Assembly (NCBI GenBank): GCA_947624305.1
Contig: CANQKC010000019.1
Span: 23,658-55,657 of the forward strand
Direction: 5' to 3'
Source of the DNA: an uncultured Monoglobus sp.
GTDB lineage: Bacteria; Bacillota; Clostridia; Monoglobales; Monoglobaceae
DNA: 32,000 nt
Shown here piece after piece: positions 9,786-13,931 of this stretch. Each line of letters begins with the position of its first letter. Positions within the stretch are counted from its first letter, which is position 1. The translations under genes were made by a program, and so were the position numbers. Under the pieces are notes generated by a model. The model saw nothing but the letters and a program-made list of their open reading frames with translations, was not told where the DNA came from and did not search any database.

Positions 9786-10676
9786 ATGAACGGGATCAAA
9801 AAATTTTCATCAATAAACGGAGCGCTGAAAGAATTGTTCGGCGCGGAAATTGAAAGTACCGACCGTCTCTACGGCGGCGATATTAACGACGCGTTCGCTA
9901 TCACCCTGAGCGGCGGCAAAAAGGTGTTTATGAAGTCCAACCGCCGCGCCTCATCTTCATTTTTTGCGGCCGAGGCCGCGGGTCTCGCGGCGATCGCGGG
10001 GACCGGGGCGATTGGTGCGCCGAAAATCTTGGGGTTCGGCGACGAAAACGGCAGGGCGTTCCTGCTGCTCGAGTTCATTGATGAGGGCAGCAGAGCCTCC
10101 GACTTTTGGGAGACATTCGGCAGACAGCTTGCCGCGATGCACAAGGCGGACGCAGGCTCATTTGTGAGCGGCGGCGCGTTCGGGTTTAAGGCGGATAACT
10201 ACATCGGCCATACCAAACAAATAAACACTCCCAAAAATTCCTGGATCGAGTTTTTCAGGGACTGCCGTCTTGAGCCGCAGTTCCGCATGGCCGAACGGTT
10301 TTTCTCGGCTCCCGACATAAAACGCGCGAATTTGCTGCTCGACAGGCTCGACGGGCTCCTTATCGAGCCCGATCATCCCTCGCTGCTGCACGGCGATCTG
10401 TGGTCCGGCAACTTTATGACGGGCAGCGACGGCAGAGCGTGGATAATCGACCCCGCGGCCTACGTCGGCCACGCCGAGGCCGACGTTGCTATGACCGAGC
10501 TGTTCGGCGGCTTCCACCGCAAATTTTATGCCGCTTATAACGAGGCCGCGCCGATCGAGCGCGGATATGAGGACAGACGCGATTTGTATAATCTGTATCA
10601 GCTTTTGAACCACCTTAACATGTTCGGAGGCTCTTATCTCTCATCAGTTATGCGGATCGTGCGCCGTTACGCTTAA
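9786..10676 (+). CDS. fructosamine kinase-family protein
   Basis: PSLLHGDLWSGN and IDPA.Y.GH.E.D motifs. Start moved to the ATG at 9786 (GGGGG RBS). The listed 9699 start overlaps the upstream gene. Confidence 0.85.
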   Translation: MNGIKKFSSINGALKELFGAEIESTDRLYGGDINDAFAITLSGGKKVFMKSNRRASSSFFAAEAAGLAAIAGTGAIGAPKILGFGDENGRAFLLLEFIDEGSRASDFWETFGRQLAAMHKADAGSFVSGGAFGFKADNYIGHTKQINTPKNSWIEFFRDCRLEPQFRMAERFFSAPDIKRANLLLDRLDGLLIEPDHPSLLHGDLWSGNFMTGSDGRAWIIDPAAYVGHAEADVAMTELFGGFHRKFYAAYNEAAPIERGYEDRRDLYNLYQLLNHLNMFGGSYLSSVMRIVRRYA

Positions 10677-10712
10677 AAAGCCGAGAGAACCGCTGGAGCC
10701 CTCTCGGCTTTT
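10676..10712. terminator. bidirectional terminator between the fructosamine kinase gene and the small peptide gene
   Basis: Stem aaaagccgagag / ctctcggctttt, 13-nt loop, flanking A and T runs. Confidence 0.8.
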
Positions 10713-10716
10713 AATT

Positions 10717-10890
10717 CTATTGCGCGCTATAGATGTCGCTCCATTTTTTGCTGCCGGCGGGCACATATGTGCCGCTTTCGTTAAGTTGTTTGCTGAGCGA
10801 CGTGGGAGTATTGCTGTCGGTAATAACGTCCGCGCACTCAAACACGGTGATCTCCGCAACGGGAGCTTTATATTCTTTTATATTTCTCAT
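10717..10890 (-). CDS. small hypothetical peptide (57 aa), no signal peptide
   Basis: AGAGGAGAG RBS about 8 nt before the ATG at 10890. Sequence MRNIKEYKAPVAEITVFECADVITDSNTPTSLSKQLNESGTYVPAGSKKWSDIYSAQ. Ends at a bidirectional terminator. Confidence 0.55.
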   Translation of the reverse strand: MRNIKEYKAPVAEITVFECADVITDSNTPTSLSKQLNESGTYVPAGSKKWSDIYSAQ

Positions 10891-10925
10891 AATTATTTCT
10901 CTCCTCTCTGTTATTGATCCGCCGA

Positions 10926-12041
10926 TTATTCGGCAGGTGCTTTCCATGCATCTTCAATGTTTACCCAATTGCTTTCATTAACCGTACCTTTTATAGACGT
11001 TTCGGAAAAAATAATATATCCGTCTTTGGAAACATACGGCTTAGCGGTAATTCCATTAGAAAAATCTCCCTTTGCTATATCATAAACTTCACCGTAAAAT
11101 CCATCCCCGTTAAGGTTTTGATCGGTATAGCTTTTTACTATTCTTCCATTAAGAATGTTGTTGTCCGCGTCGATAAACACAAATCCGTAGCCGTCCGCTT
11201 CTCCGCTGTATTTCTGGAAAAACCTGATTACACCTTTTGGATCACCCTCTTTTTTATCATTTTCATAATAAATTCCCGAAACAAAATCGTTCTCATTTGT
11301 TGTAAGCGTAACATCCGTGGGCGCGTCAACACTTTCGTGATAGTCAATTGATACACTATAAATGAAAACCTCATAATCCCAAGTAAGCTCAATTGATTTT
11401 GCGGATAAATTTCTAAAAATTATTTCATCAGGATCAGTTTTTTTACTGTTGCCTTCTTTTTGCGTATAGTTTTTAATTTCTTCCCCAGGACTCCCGTCAC
11501 TGACATCTTTTGCAGTTAAAACAGTTTCTTTATCACTTGTATTATCGTCATTGTACACAAATATTAAATCATAACTTTTATAATTACAATCTTCCGGCAG
11601 TATATTATTAATTTTTAAATATGTATTCGCAACAGAGCTTACTACATAACCGGGATCGCCTTTAGTGGTTCCGTGATGTTCATGTTCAGTATGCGGTAAA
11701 TCAAAATCGTGTTGAGTAACCTCCCAGCCTCTGTCGACTTTCTCTGATACACCATTGGGAATTTCTATTGTAACATTATCAGCGAAGCTTTCCACAGAAT
11801 GACTTATAGTTTTGTAGGATTCAAGATCAGTTGTTACAATTCCGGTAGTGTTATGGAAAGTCCAATTGATATAGTTTGCATTTGTGGAAGCAAACGGTTC
11901 GGCATAGCCATCCGCAGTTACTTCCGCGGCGCTGGCGGCCATGGGGAGCGCGAGGGTTGTAATAATCACTGTTATAACAGTGAGAAGAGATATTAATTTA
12001 CCCCCCCCCGATTTAAAATTTGACATTTTTCTTTTTCTCAT
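10926..12041 (-). CDS. secreted hypothetical protein (371 aa), AT-rich gene with a G9 tract in codons 11-14
   Basis: Signal peptide ...LISLLTVITVIITTLALPMAASAAEV. His cluster HTEHEHHG. GC is far below the neighbouring genes. No family recognised. Confidence 0.75.
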   Translation of the reverse strand: MRKRKMSNFKSGGGKLISLLTVITVIITTLALPMAASAAEVTADGYAEPFASTNANYINWTFHNTTGIVTTDLESYKTISHSVESFADNVTIEIPNGVSEKVDRGWEVTQHDFDLPHTEHEHHGTTKGDPGYVVSSVANTYLKINNILPEDCNYKSYDLIFVYNDDNTSDKETVLTAKDVSDGSPGEEIKNYTQKEGNSKKTDPDEIIFRNLSAKSIELTWDYEVFIYSVSIDYHESVDAPTDVTLTTNENDFVSGIYYENDKKEGDPKGVIRFFQKYSGEADGYGFVFIDADNNILNGRIVKSYTDQNLNGDGFYGEVYDIAKGDFSNGITAKPYVSKDGYIIFSETSIKGTVNESNWVNIEDAWKAPAE

Positions 12042-12099
12042 TGTTGTTCCCTTTCTTTCTTAAAAATTTTATATTATTTATTTTTTCGTGGTTTGTGTT

Positions 12100-12149
12100 T
12101 ACCCCTCTCCGTCAGGCTTTGCCTGACACCTCTCCCCAAGGGGCGAGGC
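12100..12149. repeat. modular GC-rich repeat, short form (conserved ends plus a variable hairpin)
   Basis: The ends tacccctctccgtc and ccccaaggggcgaggc are identical to those at 17531-17544 and 17648-17663. The internal hairpin is gtcaggc-ttt-gcctgac. Confidence 0.8.
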
Positions 12150-12151
12150 TC

Positions 12152-12283
12152 GGGCGGGCGAGTCGTCCGCCCCTACGGCATACATGGATTTTGTCCAATT
12201 TCCGGTGTAGGGCGGCATGCCCACATGCCGCCGCGGGCGGATAATATCCGCCCCTACGGGACGTCGAGGGCGCCGTCCCCTAC
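12152..12283. repeat. cluster of four REP-like hairpins, each abutting a CTAC/GTAG foot
   Basis: Units at 12152-12176, 12207-12232 (gtagggcggcatgcccacatgccgcc), 12233-12257 (gcgggcggataatatccgcccctac) and 12258-12283 (gggacgtcgagggcgccgtcccctac). Confidence 0.85.
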
Positions 12284-12331
12284 GAAATAAGGTGGGTTTT
12301 TGCCCGAACGGACAAAAAGTCGGGTGAGAAG

Positions 12332-12376
12332 CCTATTCGCTATTCGCTAATCCCTAATCACTACGTTGCTACGTTG
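12332..12376. repeat. short tandem array: 4 x 7-mer then 2 x 8-mer
   Basis: The minus strand reads CAACGTAG CAACGTAG T GATTAGG GATTAGC GAATAGC GAATAGG. Confidence 0.8.
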
Positions 12377-12379
12377 ACA

Positions 12380-12542
12380 TTTTGTTTTGGCAGGAGCGTC
12401 GTTTTTAAAGTTAAACTCCGTCAGCGCCGCTTGGTTTTTTACGGTTGGTTGATACGGCGCCCCGATGGTGCGGGTTTTCGGGAGCAAGAAAGGAATTCAG
12501 TGGATACTTTCTCTTATGAATGGCGCTCCTGCCAAAACAAAA
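12380..12542. repeat. 163-bp element bounded by perfect 19-bp inverted repeats (candidate invertible switch, MITE, or long-stem RNA)
   Basis: Left arm ttttgttttggcaggagcg at 12380-12398 is the exact reverse complement of 12524-12542. The 125-bp core contains three internal hairpins. Confidence 0.85.
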
Positions 12543-12554
12543 CGCTTTTAATAT

Positions 12555-12588
12555 ACGAAAAAACCCGAGGCGGATACGCCTCGAGCCC
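12555..12588 (-). terminator. intrinsic terminator ending a ~160-nt leader or small RNA
   Basis: Minus-strand RNA CUCGAGGCG-UAUC-CGCCUCGGG followed by UUUUUU. The one non-Watson-Crick position is U-G on the minus strand but C-A on the plus strand, which supports the minus orientation. Confidence 0.75.
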
Positions 12589-12625
12589 AGCATATCCGCA
12601 GTCCGGTTATGGCTGATTTGCGGAT
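12564..12625 (-). promoter_or_regulatory. attenuator-like switch with three mutually exclusive helices
   Basis: H1 pairs 12619-12625 with 12594-12600 (AUCCGCA/UGCGGAU). H2 pairs 12593-12599 with 12570-12576 (GCGGAUA/UAUCCGC). H3 is the terminator stem, 12577-12585 with 12564-12572. H2 shares bases with both H1 and H3. Confidence 0.5.
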
Positions 12626-12723
12626 AAAATAAAACGCATCAAGCTCCCGCCTCACCATAGGCGGAAACCGATGCTACCCAACATTAATTAAAATATAATC
12701 AACGAATCAAATCAACCAACTAT

Positions 12724-12752
12724 ATATTAGCATAATTAAAAAGTGTTGTCAA
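12724..12752 (-). promoter_or_regulatory. orphan near-consensus promoter with no adjacent CDS
   Basis: Minus strand TTGACA (12747-12752), 17 nt, TAATAT (12724-12729). The next CDS on this strand starts about 680 nt downstream at 12041. Confidence 0.6.
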
Positions 12753-12804
12753 TGGTTTTTTTGAGAAAATATATTAAAATTTTGTTTTATTCTTAATTAT
12801 TATA

Positions 12805-12835
12805 TGCAAAAGCAAGCGGCTCAAACGAGCCGCTT
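12805..12835 (-). terminator. intrinsic terminator after leuB
   Basis: Stem aagcggctc / gagccgctt, 4-nt loop, then GCUUUUGC on the minus strand. Confidence 0.75.
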
Positions 12836-12851
12836 AACTCTCATATTTTAA

Positions 12852-13931
12852 TTATCCTATATATTTTACTATTATGTCGCCCATCTCTTTGGTTCCGAGA
12901 AGCTTTCCGCCCTCGTCCATTATGTCGGCGGTTCTGTAGCCGTCGTTCAGGACCTTTGTCACCGCGTCCTCGATATCCTTCGCCTCGTCCATAAGGCTGA
13001 AGCTGTCGCGCAGCATCATGGCGCAGGACAGGATCGTGGCGATCGGGTTCGCGATGTTTTGGCCCGCAATATCCGGCGCGCTGCCGTGGATAGGCTCATA
13101 CATGCCGAGGGTGGTGCCGCCGAGCGATGATGAGGGCAGCATTCCGATCGAGCCGGTCGTCATGCTCGCCTCGTCGGAGAGAATGTCGCCGAACATATTC
13201 TCGGTCACAATAACGTCGAACTGACCGGGGTTCCTCACAAGCTGCATCGCGCAGTTGTCAACGAGCATGTCGGAATACTCAACCTCGGGATATTCCTTGG
13301 CGAGCTTGTGCATCGTCTCGCGCCACAGTCTTGAAGTCTCGATAACGTTGGCCTTGTCAACGCTTGTTACCTTTTTGCGGTCGCGCTTCATCGCAAGCTC
13401 GAACGCGACTCTGCCTATTCTCTCGATCTCGCTTACCGAATATTTAAGCTCGTCATAGGCCTCCTCGTTTCCGGTCGTCTCGTTGCGTCTGCCTCTGTCG
13501 CCGAAATACAGGCCGCCGGTGAGCTCGCGCACGATAACCAGGTCAAGACCGCCCTCCGAGATCTCGGGCTTGAGCGGACACGCTCCGGCGAGCGCGTCAT
13601 GCAGCTTCGCGGGTCTGATGTTGGCGAACAGGCCGAGCTCGGAACGCAGACCCAGCAGAGCCTTCTCGGGTCTTAAATGTCCGGGCAGGGTGTCCCACTT
13701 GGGGCCGCCGACCGCGCCGAGAAGCACCGAGTCGGAGGCCTTGGCTATCTTCACCGACTCCTCGGGCAGAGGAACCCCGGTCTCGTCGATCGCGCAGCCG
13801 CCCGCCAGAATGTCGGTATACTCAAAGGTGTGGCCGTATTTTTCGCCGATCTTGTCGAGGACTTTTTCTGCCTCGGTAATTATTTCGGGGCCTATTCCGT
13901 CGCCTTTTACTACTGCTAATTTAATGTTCAT
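12852..13931 (-). CDS. leuB: 3-isopropylmalate dehydrogenase
   Basis: 359 aa. Motifs [48 protein letters not shown]. Confidence 0.95.

What the first reader, a model, noticed from the sequence alone, without database searches (positions are those of the whole stretch)
10717..12752. Stacked regulatory devices upstream of one horizontally acquired-looking secreted protein
Reading the minus strand, the order is orphan promoter, terminator/antiterminator leader, IR-bounded 163-bp element, heptamer/octamer array, REP-like hairpin cluster, weak RBS, G9 tract, 371-aa secreted protein, then a 57-aa peptide gene and a terminator. The 810-bp non-coding stretch is by far the longest in the window, where typical intergenic regions are under 270 bp. 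A riboswitch followed by an invertible switch in a single leader is known from the C. difficile flgB operon, so the architecture has precedent. The cargo here, however, is an uncharacterised secreted protein with a His cluster (HTEHEHHG). If real, expression would be gated at three independent stochastic or signal-responsive levels.
Basis: inference. Interest (0 to 1): 0.7.

Follow-up and report, generated by a model that had tools for sequence, protein, structure and literature searches.

The report
Poly-G on/off switch, secreted protein
A run of nine G's at the start of a secreted-protein gene in an uncultured rabbit-gut Monoglobus differs in length (8, 9 or 10) between otherwise identical genomes, so it looks like a heritable on/off switch, and the gene belongs to a large family whose other copies carry a similar G run in a small upstream leader gene.

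Summary
Every listed element is present at the stated coordinates. Only one shows evidence of switching. The G9 tract (12009-12001) sits in a 30-nt insertion in the signal-peptide region of the 371-aa gene. It is the sole indel in six public contigs that are otherwise about 99.8-100% identical (G10 x4, G8 x2). G9 is in frame; G8 and G10 reach TAA within 0-2 codons.

The 'orphan' promoter is not a riboswitch leader. It is a partial copy of a multi-copy Monoglobus module. In 10 other loci this module lies 0.5-1.5 kb upstream of paralogous secreted proteins with near-identical signal peptides. The full module holds a 43-50-codon leader ORF, usually with its own poly-G tract. The ORF's single long frame always stops inside an intrinsic terminator, the geometry shown experimentally for Streptococcus gallolyticus pil1. 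The window copy lacks that ORF.

The 163-bp IR element has the same orientation in 3 of 3 assemblies, no internal promoter, no other copy, and no recombinase within 32 kb. The hairpin cluster and TAG-rich array are dispersed repeats.

Verdict: a classical slipped-strand switch inside an unusual, lineage-specific family architecture. The three-level gating idea is only partly supported.

The parts
12724..12752 (-). Sigma-70-type promoter: TTGACA, 17-nt spacer with extended -10 TG, TAATAT. Expected transcription start near 12717.
   Evidence: Consensus scan scored 10/12 plus TG. The pattern TTGACAANNNTTNNNNNNTATGNTAAWATNNNNKTGGTTG recurs in 11 places in three Monoglobus MAGs, and also in L007 and L013.
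12697..12775 (-). The only stretch with sequence homology to the multi-copy family leader module. It covers the A-rich upstream element, the promoter and the first ~25 nt of transcript with the GTTGA...GTTGA repeats.
   Evidence: nhmmer with an HMM of 12 module copies aligned model positions 18-92 here, E = 5e-5.
12624..12674 (-). Hairpin 1 (16 bp) plus the U-rich run GUUUUAUUUUAU. It is the positional and structural analogue of the conserved long hairpin plus U run in the family module. Its role is unknown: weak terminator, pause site or 5' stabiliser.
   Evidence: Folds. The family hairpin is conserved with G-U and compensatory changes. The window hairpin shows no sequence homology.
12555..12588 (-). 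Intrinsic terminator T2: 12-bp GC-rich stem, 4-nt loop, U6. An overlapping alternative hairpin (12599-12569) would exclude it. No leader ORF with an RBS covers it.
   Evidence: Terminator scan. Constrained and suboptimal folds. No RBS+ATG of the family type is present.
12380..12542 (-). 163-bp element bounded by a 19-nt perfect (29 nt, 86%) inverted repeat. It behaves as a locus-specific long hairpin; there is no evidence that it is an invertible switch or a MITE.
   Evidence: Inverted repeat I1. Same orientation in the window, L001 and L076. No promoter-like site inside.
12333..12376 (-). Array of short tandem repeats rich in TAG/TGA that closes all three reading frames (CAACGTAG x2, GATTAGG/GATTAGC, CGAATAG x2). 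It is a member of a dispersed repeat.
   Evidence: Read directly from the sequence. Related arrays directly follow the leader-ORF terminator in L020 and L026 and a different inverted repeat in L062. Copies in both orientations occur in L007, L010 and L012.
12100..12331 (-). Cluster of GC-rich REP-like hairpins (CGTAGGGGCGGA...TCCGCCC, GGCGGCATG...CATGCCGCC, CCCCTTGGGGAGAGG...GGAGAGGGG). These are dispersed intergenic repeats, not a locus-specific device.
   Evidence: Further copies lie at window 17340-17520, 30715-30747 and 31740-31799. The motif CGTAGGGGMSGR occurs 5 times in the window against 0.01 expected, and in 21 Monoglobus loci on both strands.
12042..12097 (-). Conserved proximal 5' region shared by all paralogues, including the Shine-Dalgarno sequence AGAAAGGG (12056-12049). 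No conserved -35 lies upstream of it.
   Evidence: Alignment of 11 paralogous upstream regions. Only a weak 9/12 promoter-like match occurs at 12101-12073, and its -35 falls in non-conserved repeat sequence.
10926..12041 (-). 371-aa secreted protein. The signal peptide is about residues 1-39 (...PMAASA|AE). Motifs conserved across homologues: LPHxxHxxH, SYDLIxVYN, DPDExIF, GVIRFFQ. The N-terminal part is a beta-sandwich and the C-terminal ~110-aa domain is shared family-wide.
   Evidence: ORF list. Six homologues at 40-47% identity. Only 101 representatives among 1.84 billion proteins. No Pfam or NCBIfam hit. AlphaFold2 model is all-beta with pLDDT 65. Foldseek gives only weak CBM/jelly-roll matches, TMq <= 0.26.
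12000..12029 (-). 30-nt (10-aa, KMSNFKSGGG) lineage-specific insertion in the signal-peptide n-region. It carries the G tract.
   Evidence: Protein alignment with five homologues. Of the representatives that begin with the family signal peptide, none has the insertion.
12001..12009 (-). G9 homopolymer, the switch. G9 is in frame, G10 gives an immediate TAA, and G8 gives TAA two codons later.
   Evidence: G10 in L001, L003, L004 and L006; G8 in L002 and L005; G9 in the window. It is the only indel in 1.2-12.4 kb of about 99.8-100% identical sequence. Gene callers truncated the product to 338 aa in all six contigs. It is the only G/C run of 6 or more in the window.
10717..10890 (-). 57-aa peptide gene with its own GAGGAG RBS. 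It is a conserved partner of the family: 54-83-aa peptides with invariant Y7, P10, FECAD and W50.
   Evidence: It follows the homologous large gene in L007, L010 (twice), L013, L061, L062, L064 and L072. 35 clusters, none with a Pfam domain or a name. The model is unstructured on its own, pTM 0.15.
10676..10712 (.). Bidirectional terminator hairpin shared with the convergent fructosamine-kinase gene.
   Evidence: 12-nt perfect inverted repeat I18. Terminator-like site on the plus strand.

Best explanation
The 371-aa gene and its 57-aa partner form one cassette of a multigene family seen so far only in rabbit-gut Monoglobus MAGs. The family encodes secreted beta-sandwich proteins.

In this copy, expression is switched heritably and reversibly by slipped-strand mispairing at the G tract in the signal-peptide coding region. 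G9 gives the full pre-protein. G8 or G10 ends translation at a TAA within 0-2 codons, so no secreted protein is made.

The distant promoter, its first ~25 transcribed bases and the following hairpin are a degenerate copy of the family's leader module. In the other loci that module contains a 43-50-codon leader ORF, in most copies interrupted by its own poly-G tract. Only one tract-length class lets ribosomes run to a stop codon buried in the 5' arm of an intrinsic terminator. By analogy with S. gallolyticus pil1, that would prevent termination and turn the downstream gene on.

In the window copy the leader ORF and its tract are absent, and the tract is in the structural gene instead. Transcripts from the 12752 promoter meet hairpin 1 and terminator T2 with nothing evident to relieve them.

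The IR element, TAG array and REP-like cluster are structured or dispersed repeats that fill the long leader. None of them is shown to switch.

Shown: the tract polymorphism, the frame consequences, the module's conservation and synteny, and the leader-ORF/terminator geometry. Inferred: that the polymorphism arises by replication slippage in vivo, that ribosomes relieve termination, and that the upstream promoter feeds this gene.
For: 1. Tract polymorphism. Six public contigs are about 99.8-100% identical to the window over 1.2-12.4 kb and differ by exactly one indel, in the tract: G10 x4 and G8 x2 against G9. None of the A/T runs of 6-7 in the overlap varies.

2. Frame logic. Homologues align through the signal peptide only with G9. 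Gene callers fell back to Met34 in all six off-length contigs.

3. Family module. There are 11 exact pattern hits in three Monoglobus MAGs, plus L007 and L013. All 10 distinct loci with downstream sequence carry a gene starting MRKRRILSLLLAVAV...PLTASA 0.5-1.5 kb downstream. The proximal 55 nt and the SD are conserved, without a conserved -35.

4. Leader ORF.
   - In every copy exactly one frame reaches the TAG inside GGCATAGGG...CCCTATGCC-UUUU.
   - The long-frame peptide is conserved (...ADNxxRxLxAxENKxKTA).
   - Tract-less copies (L013, L026) are open in that frame.
   - L020 has a shorter pre-tract and is in frame at G9 instead of G10.

5. Leader tracts are polymorphic at orthologous loci. 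L007/L008 have G9 and L061 has G10, with flanks 98.3% identical. L072 has G12 and L073 has G11, the sole indel in 5.2 kb at 99.96% identity. G7 and G8 runs in REP elements are stable across assemblies.

6. Experimental precedent for the geometry: the pil1 leader peptide with GCAGA repeats, where a stop codon in or after the terminator gives ON and a stop 39 bp upstream gives OFF (PMC3894217).

7. Precedents for tracts inside structural genes: Opa CTCTT repeats in the leader-peptide coding region (PMC3960869) and the Bifidobacterium breve pilus G-tract (PMC9187656).
Against: - All tract lengths come from low-coverage (about 3x) short-read metagenome assemblies, and poly-G runs are error-prone. 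The ENA and Logan contigs may come from the same three samples.
- The in-frame G9 allele is seen only in the window, and its 371-aa product is not on record in public gene calls.
- There are no expression data.
- In this copy the promoter is followed by two terminator-like hairpins and no leader ORF, so it may not drive the gene at all.
- Homology to the module covers only about 75 nt.
- The function of the protein is unknown, so no selective rationale for switching can be given.
Confidence: 0.7

Rival explanations
1. One reading: three independent gates act in one leader. These are a ligand- or signal-responsive terminator/antiterminator (riboswitch-like), an invertible DNA switch bounded by the 19-29-nt inverted repeat, and the G tract.
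For: - The leader RNA is unusually stable (z = -6.9) and has a hairpin mutually exclusive with T2.
- A good inverted repeat flanks 105 nt.
- Long inverted repeats also sit at the same relative position in a second leader type (L010, L062).
Against: - No Rfam family matches.
- The antiterminator has no comparative support, because homologous copies differ in sequence there.
- The IR element has the same orientation in 3 of 3 assemblies, no promoter inside and no other copies.
- No recombinase lies within 32 kb.
Confidence: 0.07
2. Artefact or decay: the G8/G9/G10 differences are homopolymer sequencing or assembly errors, or the gene is simply a frameshifted pseudogene in most cells. There is no functional switch.
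For: - Contig coverage is about 3x.
- Poly-G is error-prone in short-read data (general knowledge).
- Six of seven sequences are out of frame.
- By dinucleotide shuffles a G run of 8 or more is not rare.
Against: - Lengths two apart (G8 and G10) recur in several contigs, while every other base and homopolymer agrees.
- G7, G8 and one G9 tract elsewhere are reproducible between assemblies.
- Variable tracts are found specifically at frame-setting positions in three loci.
- Both off frames hit TAA at once (read from the sequence), and the rest of the 1.1-kb ORF is intact.
Confidence: 0.12
3. Uncoupled units: in this copy the upstream promoter makes only a short stand-alone RNA of about 95-160 nt ending at hairpin 1 or T2. 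The 371-aa gene is transcribed from a weak proximal or alternative-sigma promoter. The G tract would still switch translation.
For: - Two terminator-like hairpins follow the promoter, and no leader ORF is there to relieve them.
- A weak 9/12 promoter-like site lies at 12101-12073.
Against: - The promoter module is linked to the same gene family in all 10 other loci.
- The proximal region has no conserved -35.
- No further terminator-like site lies on the minus strand between 12561 and 12042.
Confidence: 0.3
4. RNA-level recoding: RNA polymerase slippage or ribosomal frameshifting on the G run makes a fixed fraction of in-frame product from any tract length. The result would be a rheostat rather than a heritable switch.
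For: - Most tract-bearing leader ORFs (7 of 10 loci) sit one G short of the long frame.
- The tract pairs with a conserved upstream pyrimidine run in the module RNA.
Against: - DNA-level length differences are observed directly at three loci.
- Slippage on G runs is less documented than on A/T runs (general knowledge).
Confidence: 0.08

Closest known systems
Streptococcus gallolyticus pil1 leader-peptide/terminator phase variation (Danne et al. 2014, PMC3894217)
   Same: Shared by the Monoglobus family module: a promoter, an RBS and a short leader ORF containing a slippage-prone repeat, followed by an intrinsic terminator. Only the long reading frame puts the stop codon in the terminator. The short frames stop about 55-75 nt upstream, compared with 39 bp in pil1.
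   Different: - The repeat is a G homopolymer, not 22 GCAGA units.
- The module is multi-copy: five places in one MAG and four in another.
- It lies 0.5-1.5 kb upstream of its gene, across repeat-filled spacers.
- It controls secreted non-pilus proteins.
- The window copy itself lacks the leader ORF, so it is not a working member of this device.
Neisseria Opa (CTCTT repeats in the leader-peptide coding region; PMC3960869) and the Bifidobacterium breve pilus G-tract (PMC9187656)
   Same: A slippage-prone repeat in the 5' coding region, inside the signal peptide for Opa, sets the reading frame of a surface or secreted protein. Like Opa, this is a multigene family. Like B. breve, the host is a Gram-positive gut commensal and the repeat is an intragenic G tract.
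   Different: - No homology of the proteins.
- The tract lies in a lineage-specific 30-nt insertion.
- No switching rates or phenotypes have been measured.
- The host is an uncultured member of the Clostridia (Monoglobus).
Clostridioides difficile flgB leader (c-di-GMP riboswitch plus invertible flagellar switch) and the cwpV switch
   Same: A long 5' leader holds a terminator and an inverted-repeat-bounded segment upstream of a surface-protein gene.
   Different: - No riboswitch match.
- No evidence of inversion.
- No recombinase nearby.
- The demonstrated variable site is a homopolymer in the coding region.
Mycoplasma variable lipoprotein families (Vlp/Vsa type)
   Same: Many paralogues share a nearly identical 5' region and signal peptide but have divergent mature parts. 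Each is linked to a homopolymer that can change length. This comparison rests on general knowledge.
   Different: - In Mycoplasma the tract is poly-A in the promoter spacer.
- Here it is poly-G in a leader ORF or in the coding sequence.
- The proteins here are not lipoproteins: the cleavage site is ASA|A and there is no lipobox.
REP / dispersed intergenic palindromes
   Same: Short GC-rich hairpins occur in clusters in intergenic DNA on both strands, at many loci.
   Different: The sequence families are specific to these genomes. Here they pile up inside 5' leaders and after the cassettes. No function has been tested.

Membership tests
Slipped-strand (contingency-locus) phase-variable gene | Simple-sequence repeat within the 5' coding region, long enough to slip (homopolymer of about 8 or more) | tested here: met
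   G9 at 12009-12001, codons 11-14 of the ORF. It is the only G/C run of 6 or more in 32 kb.
Slipped-strand (contingency-locus) phase-variable gene | Repeat length differs between otherwise near-identical genomes | tested here: met
   G8 x2, G9 x1 and G10 x4. The tract is the sole indel in each of six contigs.
Slipped-strand (contingency-locus) phase-variable gene | Length change toggles between a full-length product and early termination | tested here: met
   G9 gives 371 aa with a signal peptide that aligns to the homologues. G10 gives an immediate TAA and G8 gives TAA after 2 codons (sequence). Products were called as 338 aa from Met34 in the off-length contigs.
Slipped-strand (contingency-locus) phase-variable gene | Reversible on/off switching of expression within a clonal population | not testable with these tools
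   Needs culture, deep error-controlled sequencing or reporters.
Leader-peptide/terminator phase-variable attenuator (pil1 type) | Promoter-proximal short ORF with an RBS, containing the repeat | tested here: not met
   The window leader has no RBS+ATG of the family type and no tract. Of 11 other distinct loci, 9 meet the feature; L013 and L026 have the ORF but no tract.
Leader-peptide/terminator phase-variable attenuator (pil1 type) | Intrinsic terminator placed so that only the long frame's stop codon lies in or after it | tested here: not met
   In the window, T2 (12588-12561) is not covered by a credible ORF. In the family copies, TAG lies in the 5' arm of the terminator in exactly one frame in every copy.
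Leader-peptide/terminator phase-variable attenuator (pil1 type) | Downstream transcription depends on translation of the leader ORF | not testable with these tools
   Requires start-codon and terminator mutants, as in PMC3894217.
Invertible DNA switch (cwpV/flgB type) | Inverted repeats flanking a short segment between promoter and gene | tested here: met
   Arms 12542-12514 and 12408-12380.
Invertible DNA switch (cwpV/flgB type) | Both orientations present in populations | tested here: inconclusive
   Only one orientation is seen, in three assemblies (window, L001, L076). No reads were available.
Invertible DNA switch (cwpV/flgB type) | Orientation-dependent promoter or terminator inside the segment; a recombinase available | tested here: not met
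   No promoter- or terminator-like site lies inside on either strand. No recombinase domain was found in the window ORFs scanned or covered by precomputed Pfam calls. A recombinase acting in trans cannot be excluded.
Riboswitch / known cis-regulatory RNA | Match to a curated aptamer or leader family | tested here: not met
   No hits at gathering thresholds over the whole window. Only chance-level hits (bits far below gathering) at E <= 10 in 11900-12900.
REP-like dispersed repeats | Multi-copy, intergenic, both orientations, hairpin-forming | tested here: met
   Fold.
MITE (for the IR-bounded element) | Multiple copies in the genome or related genomes | tested here: not met
The full genome was not available.

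The most novel reading that the evidence does not exclude
These rabbit-gut Monoglobus genomes carry a repertoire of secreted-protein cassettes (four or five module copies found per MAG). The proteins have one shared signal peptide and divergent beta-sandwich bodies, most with a common C-terminal domain and a partner 55-60-aa peptide. Each cassette is independently switched by a poly-G tract in a leader ORF that gates an intrinsic terminator. This would be a combinatorial, heritable secretome-variation system in a commensal gut member of the Clostridia. The window locus would then capture an evolutionary relocation of the switch from the leader ORF into the signal-peptide coding region: the motif TC-G9-TAA occurs in both places.
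Probability: 0.45. Interest if true: 0.75.

Novelty: new variant of a known kind. Interest (0 to 1): 0.6.

Why it matters
Phase variation by repeat slippage is textbook for mucosal pathogens. To my knowledge it has not been described for the uncultured fibre-degrading Clostridia that dominate herbivore and human hindguts; the two literature searches run here found no Monoglobus report.

Here the evidence comes straight from public metagenomes. At three separate loci the G tract is the only indel between near-identical contigs, and at two of them it is essentially the only difference of any kind.

If the family-level reading holds, it would be only the second system I am aware of that couples repeat slippage in a leader peptide to transcription attenuation. 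It would also be the first multi-copy one. Monoglobus would then vary what it secretes or displays cell by cell, which bears on glycan foraging, phage or host-immune evasion, and the interpretation of 'frameshifted' genes in MAGs.

There is a practical point as well. Gene callers truncated this protein in all six public contigs, and leader ORFs in the off state are too short to be called. Such switches are therefore systematically invisible in MAG annotation.

Tried and rejected
- **Rfam.** Gathering thresholds on the whole window and relaxed thresholds on 11900-12900 found nothing credible.
- **Pfam and NCBIfam** on the 371-aa and 57-aa products found nothing.
- **Structure of the 371-aa protein.** The AlphaFold2 model has only moderate confidence (pLDDT 65). 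The Foldseek PDB hits are generic jelly-roll/CBM folds with TMq <= 0.26. They support 'beta-sandwich, possibly glycan-binding' at most and do not give a function.
- **Structure of the 57-aa peptide.** The model is unstructured.
- **Single-sequence search with the peptide** found only itself. A profile search was needed to find 35 clusters.
- **Metagenome scan with the 19-nt IR arm** returned 34 single chance matches and no copy of the element.
- **Homology of the window leader to the leader ORF and terminator of the family.** nhmmer finds none beyond the promoter and first ~25 nt. A shared 'CCCGAAAA / APEN' string inside the IR element was judged too short to count.
- **The 60-aa ORF at 12593-12411 that crosses T2** was considered as a replacement leader ORF. 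It was rejected for lack of an RBS and of conservation.
- **Look-up of the exact 371-aa product** is not on record.
- **Look-ups through LeuB and the peptide** added one more assembly covering the IR element and one sister lineage without the cassette, but no new tract lengths.
- **Statistical rarity of G9 by shuffling** is not significant on its own.

Full report
**What is there**

All coordinates are on the minus strand.
- The ilv-leu operon (ilvB, ilvN, ilvC, leuA, leuC, leuD, leuB) ends at 12852, with a terminator at 12836-12813.
- An 810-nt non-coding stretch follows. It is the longest gap in the window; the next longest are 412 and 362 nt.
- Then come a 371-aa ORF (12041-10926), a 57-aa ORF (10890-10717) and a bidirectional terminator (10712-10676). 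The terminator is shared with a convergent fructosamine-kinase gene.

- A near-consensus promoter with an extended -10 lies at 12752-12724.
- The leader is strongly folded (z = -6.9).
  - It has a long hairpin plus U run at 12674-12624.
  - It has a canonical terminator at 12588-12555.
  - An alternative hairpin is mutually exclusive with that terminator.
- A 163-bp segment at 12542-12380 is bounded by a 19-nt perfect inverted repeat.
- An array of short tandem repeats lies at 12376-12333.
- A cluster of GC-rich hairpins lies at 12331-12100.
- The G9 run is at 12009-12001.

One correction: the ribosome-binding site is not weak. AGAAAGGG is conserved in all paralogues.

**The G tract is the real switch**
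- A search of 5.8 billion proteins found a 100%-identical product of only 338 aa that starts at Met34.
- The six public contigs that encode it are about 99.8-100% identical to the window over 1.2-12.4 kb.
- Each differs from the window by exactly one indel, in the tract: G10 in four contigs and G8 in two.
- L001 has one substitution and that one indel in 12,424 nt. Four contigs have no other difference at all.
- With G9 the ORF begins MRKRKMSNFKSGGGKLISLL...PMAASA|AE and aligns with the signal peptides of its homologues. Relative to them, the tract lies in a 10-codon insertion in the n-region.
- With G10 the next codon is TAA. With G8, TAA comes two codons later.
- The tract is the only G/C run of 6 or more in the 32-kb window.
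- By shuffling, a run of this length is not in itself improbable. The argument therefore rests on the polymorphism, not on occurrence.

**The organism and the gene family**
- A DNA pattern taken from the promoter and the first transcribed bases hit 11 places in three species-representative MAGs. All are titled 'uncultured Monoglobus sp.' and come from rabbit ('Lapin') samples.
- The 371-aa protein has only six close relatives and 101 representatives among 1.84 billion proteins.
- Dozens of these start with an almost invariant signal peptide, MRKRRILSLLLAVAV(M/T)ATML(I/V)AVPLTASA. Their mature parts diverge. About half of the representatives end in the same ~110-residue C-terminal domain.
- None of those that begin with the family signal peptide has the G-tract insertion.
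- Wherever I looked, the large gene is followed by a 54-83-aa peptide gene with invariant Y7, P10, FECAD and W50.
- Neither protein matches Pfam or NCBIfam.
- The AlphaFold2 model of the large protein is all-beta with moderate confidence. It gives only weak jelly-roll/CBM-type Foldseek matches.
- The peptide model is unstructured.
- Low GC (37%) is shared by all family genes (37-42% against about 50% for most of their loci). It is therefore a family trait.
- The cassette is nevertheless lineage-specific at this site. A sister lineage with an identical LeuB protein is 97.4% identical in DNA up to 8 nt past the leuB stop. It then continues into an unrelated sequence that looks like valS, read from the translated start.

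**What the 'orphan promoter' is**

Copies of the promoter pattern were aligned. The alignment shows a conserved module with these parts in order:
1. an A-rich upstream element;
2. TTGACA, a 17-nt spacer with TG, and TAAAAT;
3. a 5' end with GTTGA repeats;
4. a long hairpin followed by a U run;
5. the RBS GAGAAGG;
6. a short ORF;
7. an intrinsic terminator, GGCATAGGG-loop-CCCTATGCC-UUUU.

In 9 of the 11 distinct loci the ORF is interrupted by a G tract: G9 in seven, G10 in two more plus one allele (L061), and G11/G12 in one. In every copy exactly one of the three frames runs on to the TAG that lies inside the 5' arm of the terminator. That frame gives a conserved 43-50-aa peptide (...NFNNLKNADNAVRALTARENxxxTA). 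The other frames stop 55-75 nt earlier.

The two tract-less loci (L013, L026) are open in the long frame. L020 has a pre-tract two bases shorter and is in frame with G9 rather than G10.

The leader tracts are themselves polymorphic at orthologous loci.
- L007/L008 have G9 and L061 has G10, with 98.3% identical flanks.
- L072 has G12 and L073 has G11, the only indel in 5.2 kb at 99.96% identity.
- G7 and G8 runs in REP elements are stable between assemblies.

All 10 distinct loci with enough downstream sequence carry a family gene on the same strand 0.5-1.5 kb further on. The spacer is variable and repeat-filled. It ends in a conserved 55-nt proximal region with the SD but no conserved -35.

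This is the geometry demonstrated experimentally for S. gallolyticus pil1. There, slippage of GCAGA repeats changes the length of a leader peptide, and only peptides whose stop lies in or beyond the terminator relieve termination (PMC3894217).

**How the window copy differs**
- nhmmer aligns the window to the module only from the upstream element to the GTTGATT motif (12775-12697).
- A hairpin plus U run follows at the equivalent position but with a different sequence.
- There is no RBS, no leader ORF and no tract.
- The terminator (T2) is unrelated in sequence.
- Sequence similarity to some family leaders resumes only at the TAG-rich array. In L020 and L026 that array follows the leader-ORF terminator directly. 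In L062 it follows a different inverted repeat.

The window leader is thus a degenerate or remodelled module, and the frame-setting tract sits in the structural gene instead. The tract context TC-G9-TAA is the same in both places. This hints at a common origin but does not show one.

Whether the 12752 promoter still feeds the gene cannot be decided from sequence.
- For: conserved linkage, no conserved proximal promoter, and no further terminator-like site between 12561 and 12042.
- Against: two terminator-like hairpins with nothing evident to relieve them.

**The other 'devices'**
- IR-bounded element:
  - It has the same orientation in the window and in two independent assemblies.
  - It has no promoter- or terminator-like site inside.
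  - No recombinase was found within the 32-kb window.
  - Inversion is not excluded, but nothing supports it.
- The GC-rich hairpins are dispersed repeats. Copies lie at 17340-17520, 30715-30747 and 31740-31799, and at many Monoglobus loci on both strands.
- No riboswitch or other Rfam family is present.

**Mechanism and confidence**

I put 0.7 on the following reading. The gene is a slipped-strand phase-variable member of a lineage-specific secreted-protein family, and its leader is a decayed copy of the family's leader module.

The family-level attenuation mechanism is inferred from geometry, conservation and one experimental precedent. I put it at about 0.5.

The main caveat is data quality. 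All tract lengths come from contigs of about 3x coverage, possibly from only three or four samples. The in-frame allele is seen only in the window.

**Comparison and novelty**

For the window locus itself the closest analogues are Opa-type repeats in a signal-peptide coding region (PMC3960869) and the intragenic G tract of Bifidobacterium breve pilus genes (PMC9187656). That makes it a new member of a known kind.

The family architecture is a new variant of the pil1-type device. It is multi-copy, uses a poly-G tract in a leader ORF with a terminator, acts across long repeat-filled spacers, and sits in an uncultured gut member of the Clostridia. Two literature searches found no report of it for Monoglobus.

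Noticed in passing
L016-L026, L007, L013, L061, L072/L073 (for example L023 6315-6690): A multi-copy leader module in rabbit-gut Monoglobus MAGs. It consists of a promoter, a hairpin plus U run, an RBS, a 43-50-codon ORF with a G9-G12 tract, and a terminator whose 5' arm contains the long frame's TAG. By assembly consensus, most copies are one G short of the long frame.
   Followed up: yes
L023 6349-6700 (also the other module copies): In the module RNA the G tract is predicted to pair with a conserved pyrimidine run about 10 nt upstream (GUGCCUUCCUCCGAC/GUCGGGGGGGGGUAC). The tract therefore forms the 3' arm of a strong hairpin inside the leader ORF. In the window gene a pyrimidine run (UCUCUUCUC) lies 10 nt downstream of the tract instead.
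   Followed up: partly
L010 3040-3140; L062 about 1960-2290: A second leader type precedes other family members. It has a different strong promoter followed by a 21-24-nt inverted repeat (AATACAACATATGATGTATTT / AAATACATCATATGTTGTATT) flanking 36 nt or about 290 nt. A TAG-rich array follows in L062. L010, L011 and L012 gave the same pattern of matches to the window leader, so no rearrangement was evident there.
   Followed up: partly
window 12333-12376; L020 and L026 just after the leader-ORF terminator; L062 after the inverted repeat: The short-repeat array (AACGTAG, GATTAG, CGAATAG units) contains TAG/TGA in all three frames. In several loci it lies immediately after the last hairpin of the leader module. 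It could be a stop-codon trap or a protein-binding array. It also occurs as a dispersed repeat in both orientations.
   Followed up: partly
L007 vs L061 vs L018: The same chromosomal site (same upstream gene and terminator, and a near-identical module) carries different cargo in different lineages: 376 aa in L007, 572 aa with an extra N-terminal domain in L061, and a 607-aa protein in L018. Only the signal peptide, the C-terminal domain and the peptide gene are shared, which suggests cassette or domain replacement.
   Followed up: partly
L077 1636-2067 vs window 12843 downwards: A sister lineage has an identical LeuB protein and 97.4% DNA identity in leuD-leuB. It lacks the whole cassette and leader. 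An ORF that looks like valS, read from its translated start, follows leuB instead, and homology breaks 8 nt after the leuB stop.
   Followed up: partly
window 17306-17717, 30715-30747, 31740-31799: REP-like GC-rich hairpins of the same families as in the leader lie between leuA and ilvC (the second-longest gap, 412 nt) and around the AraC-type regulator gene.
   Followed up: partly
window 22418-23716 (+): A very low-GC island (32-39%) encodes a 432-aa Acyl_transf_3 membrane protein, next to a split chromate-transporter pair. It is another candidate for a recently acquired or fast-evolving surface-modification gene.
   Followed up: no
window 6957-8066 (-): A 369-aa protein with a signal peptide and internal repeats has no Pfam match. 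It sits next to a two-component system and a MacB/FtsX-type ABC transporter.
   Followed up: no
L010 2780-2912: This is an apparent 5'-truncated remnant of a partner-peptide gene (...AEVIEFECADVITTS...SYVSVGSKTWKSGLTD*). It lies between two cassettes and suggests past cassette turnover.
   Followed up: no
window 12020 (L002): The only substitution near the tract among the public contigs is A>G, 11 nt upstream of it (MSNFK to MSDFK). It occurs in one of the two G8 contigs.
   Followed up: no
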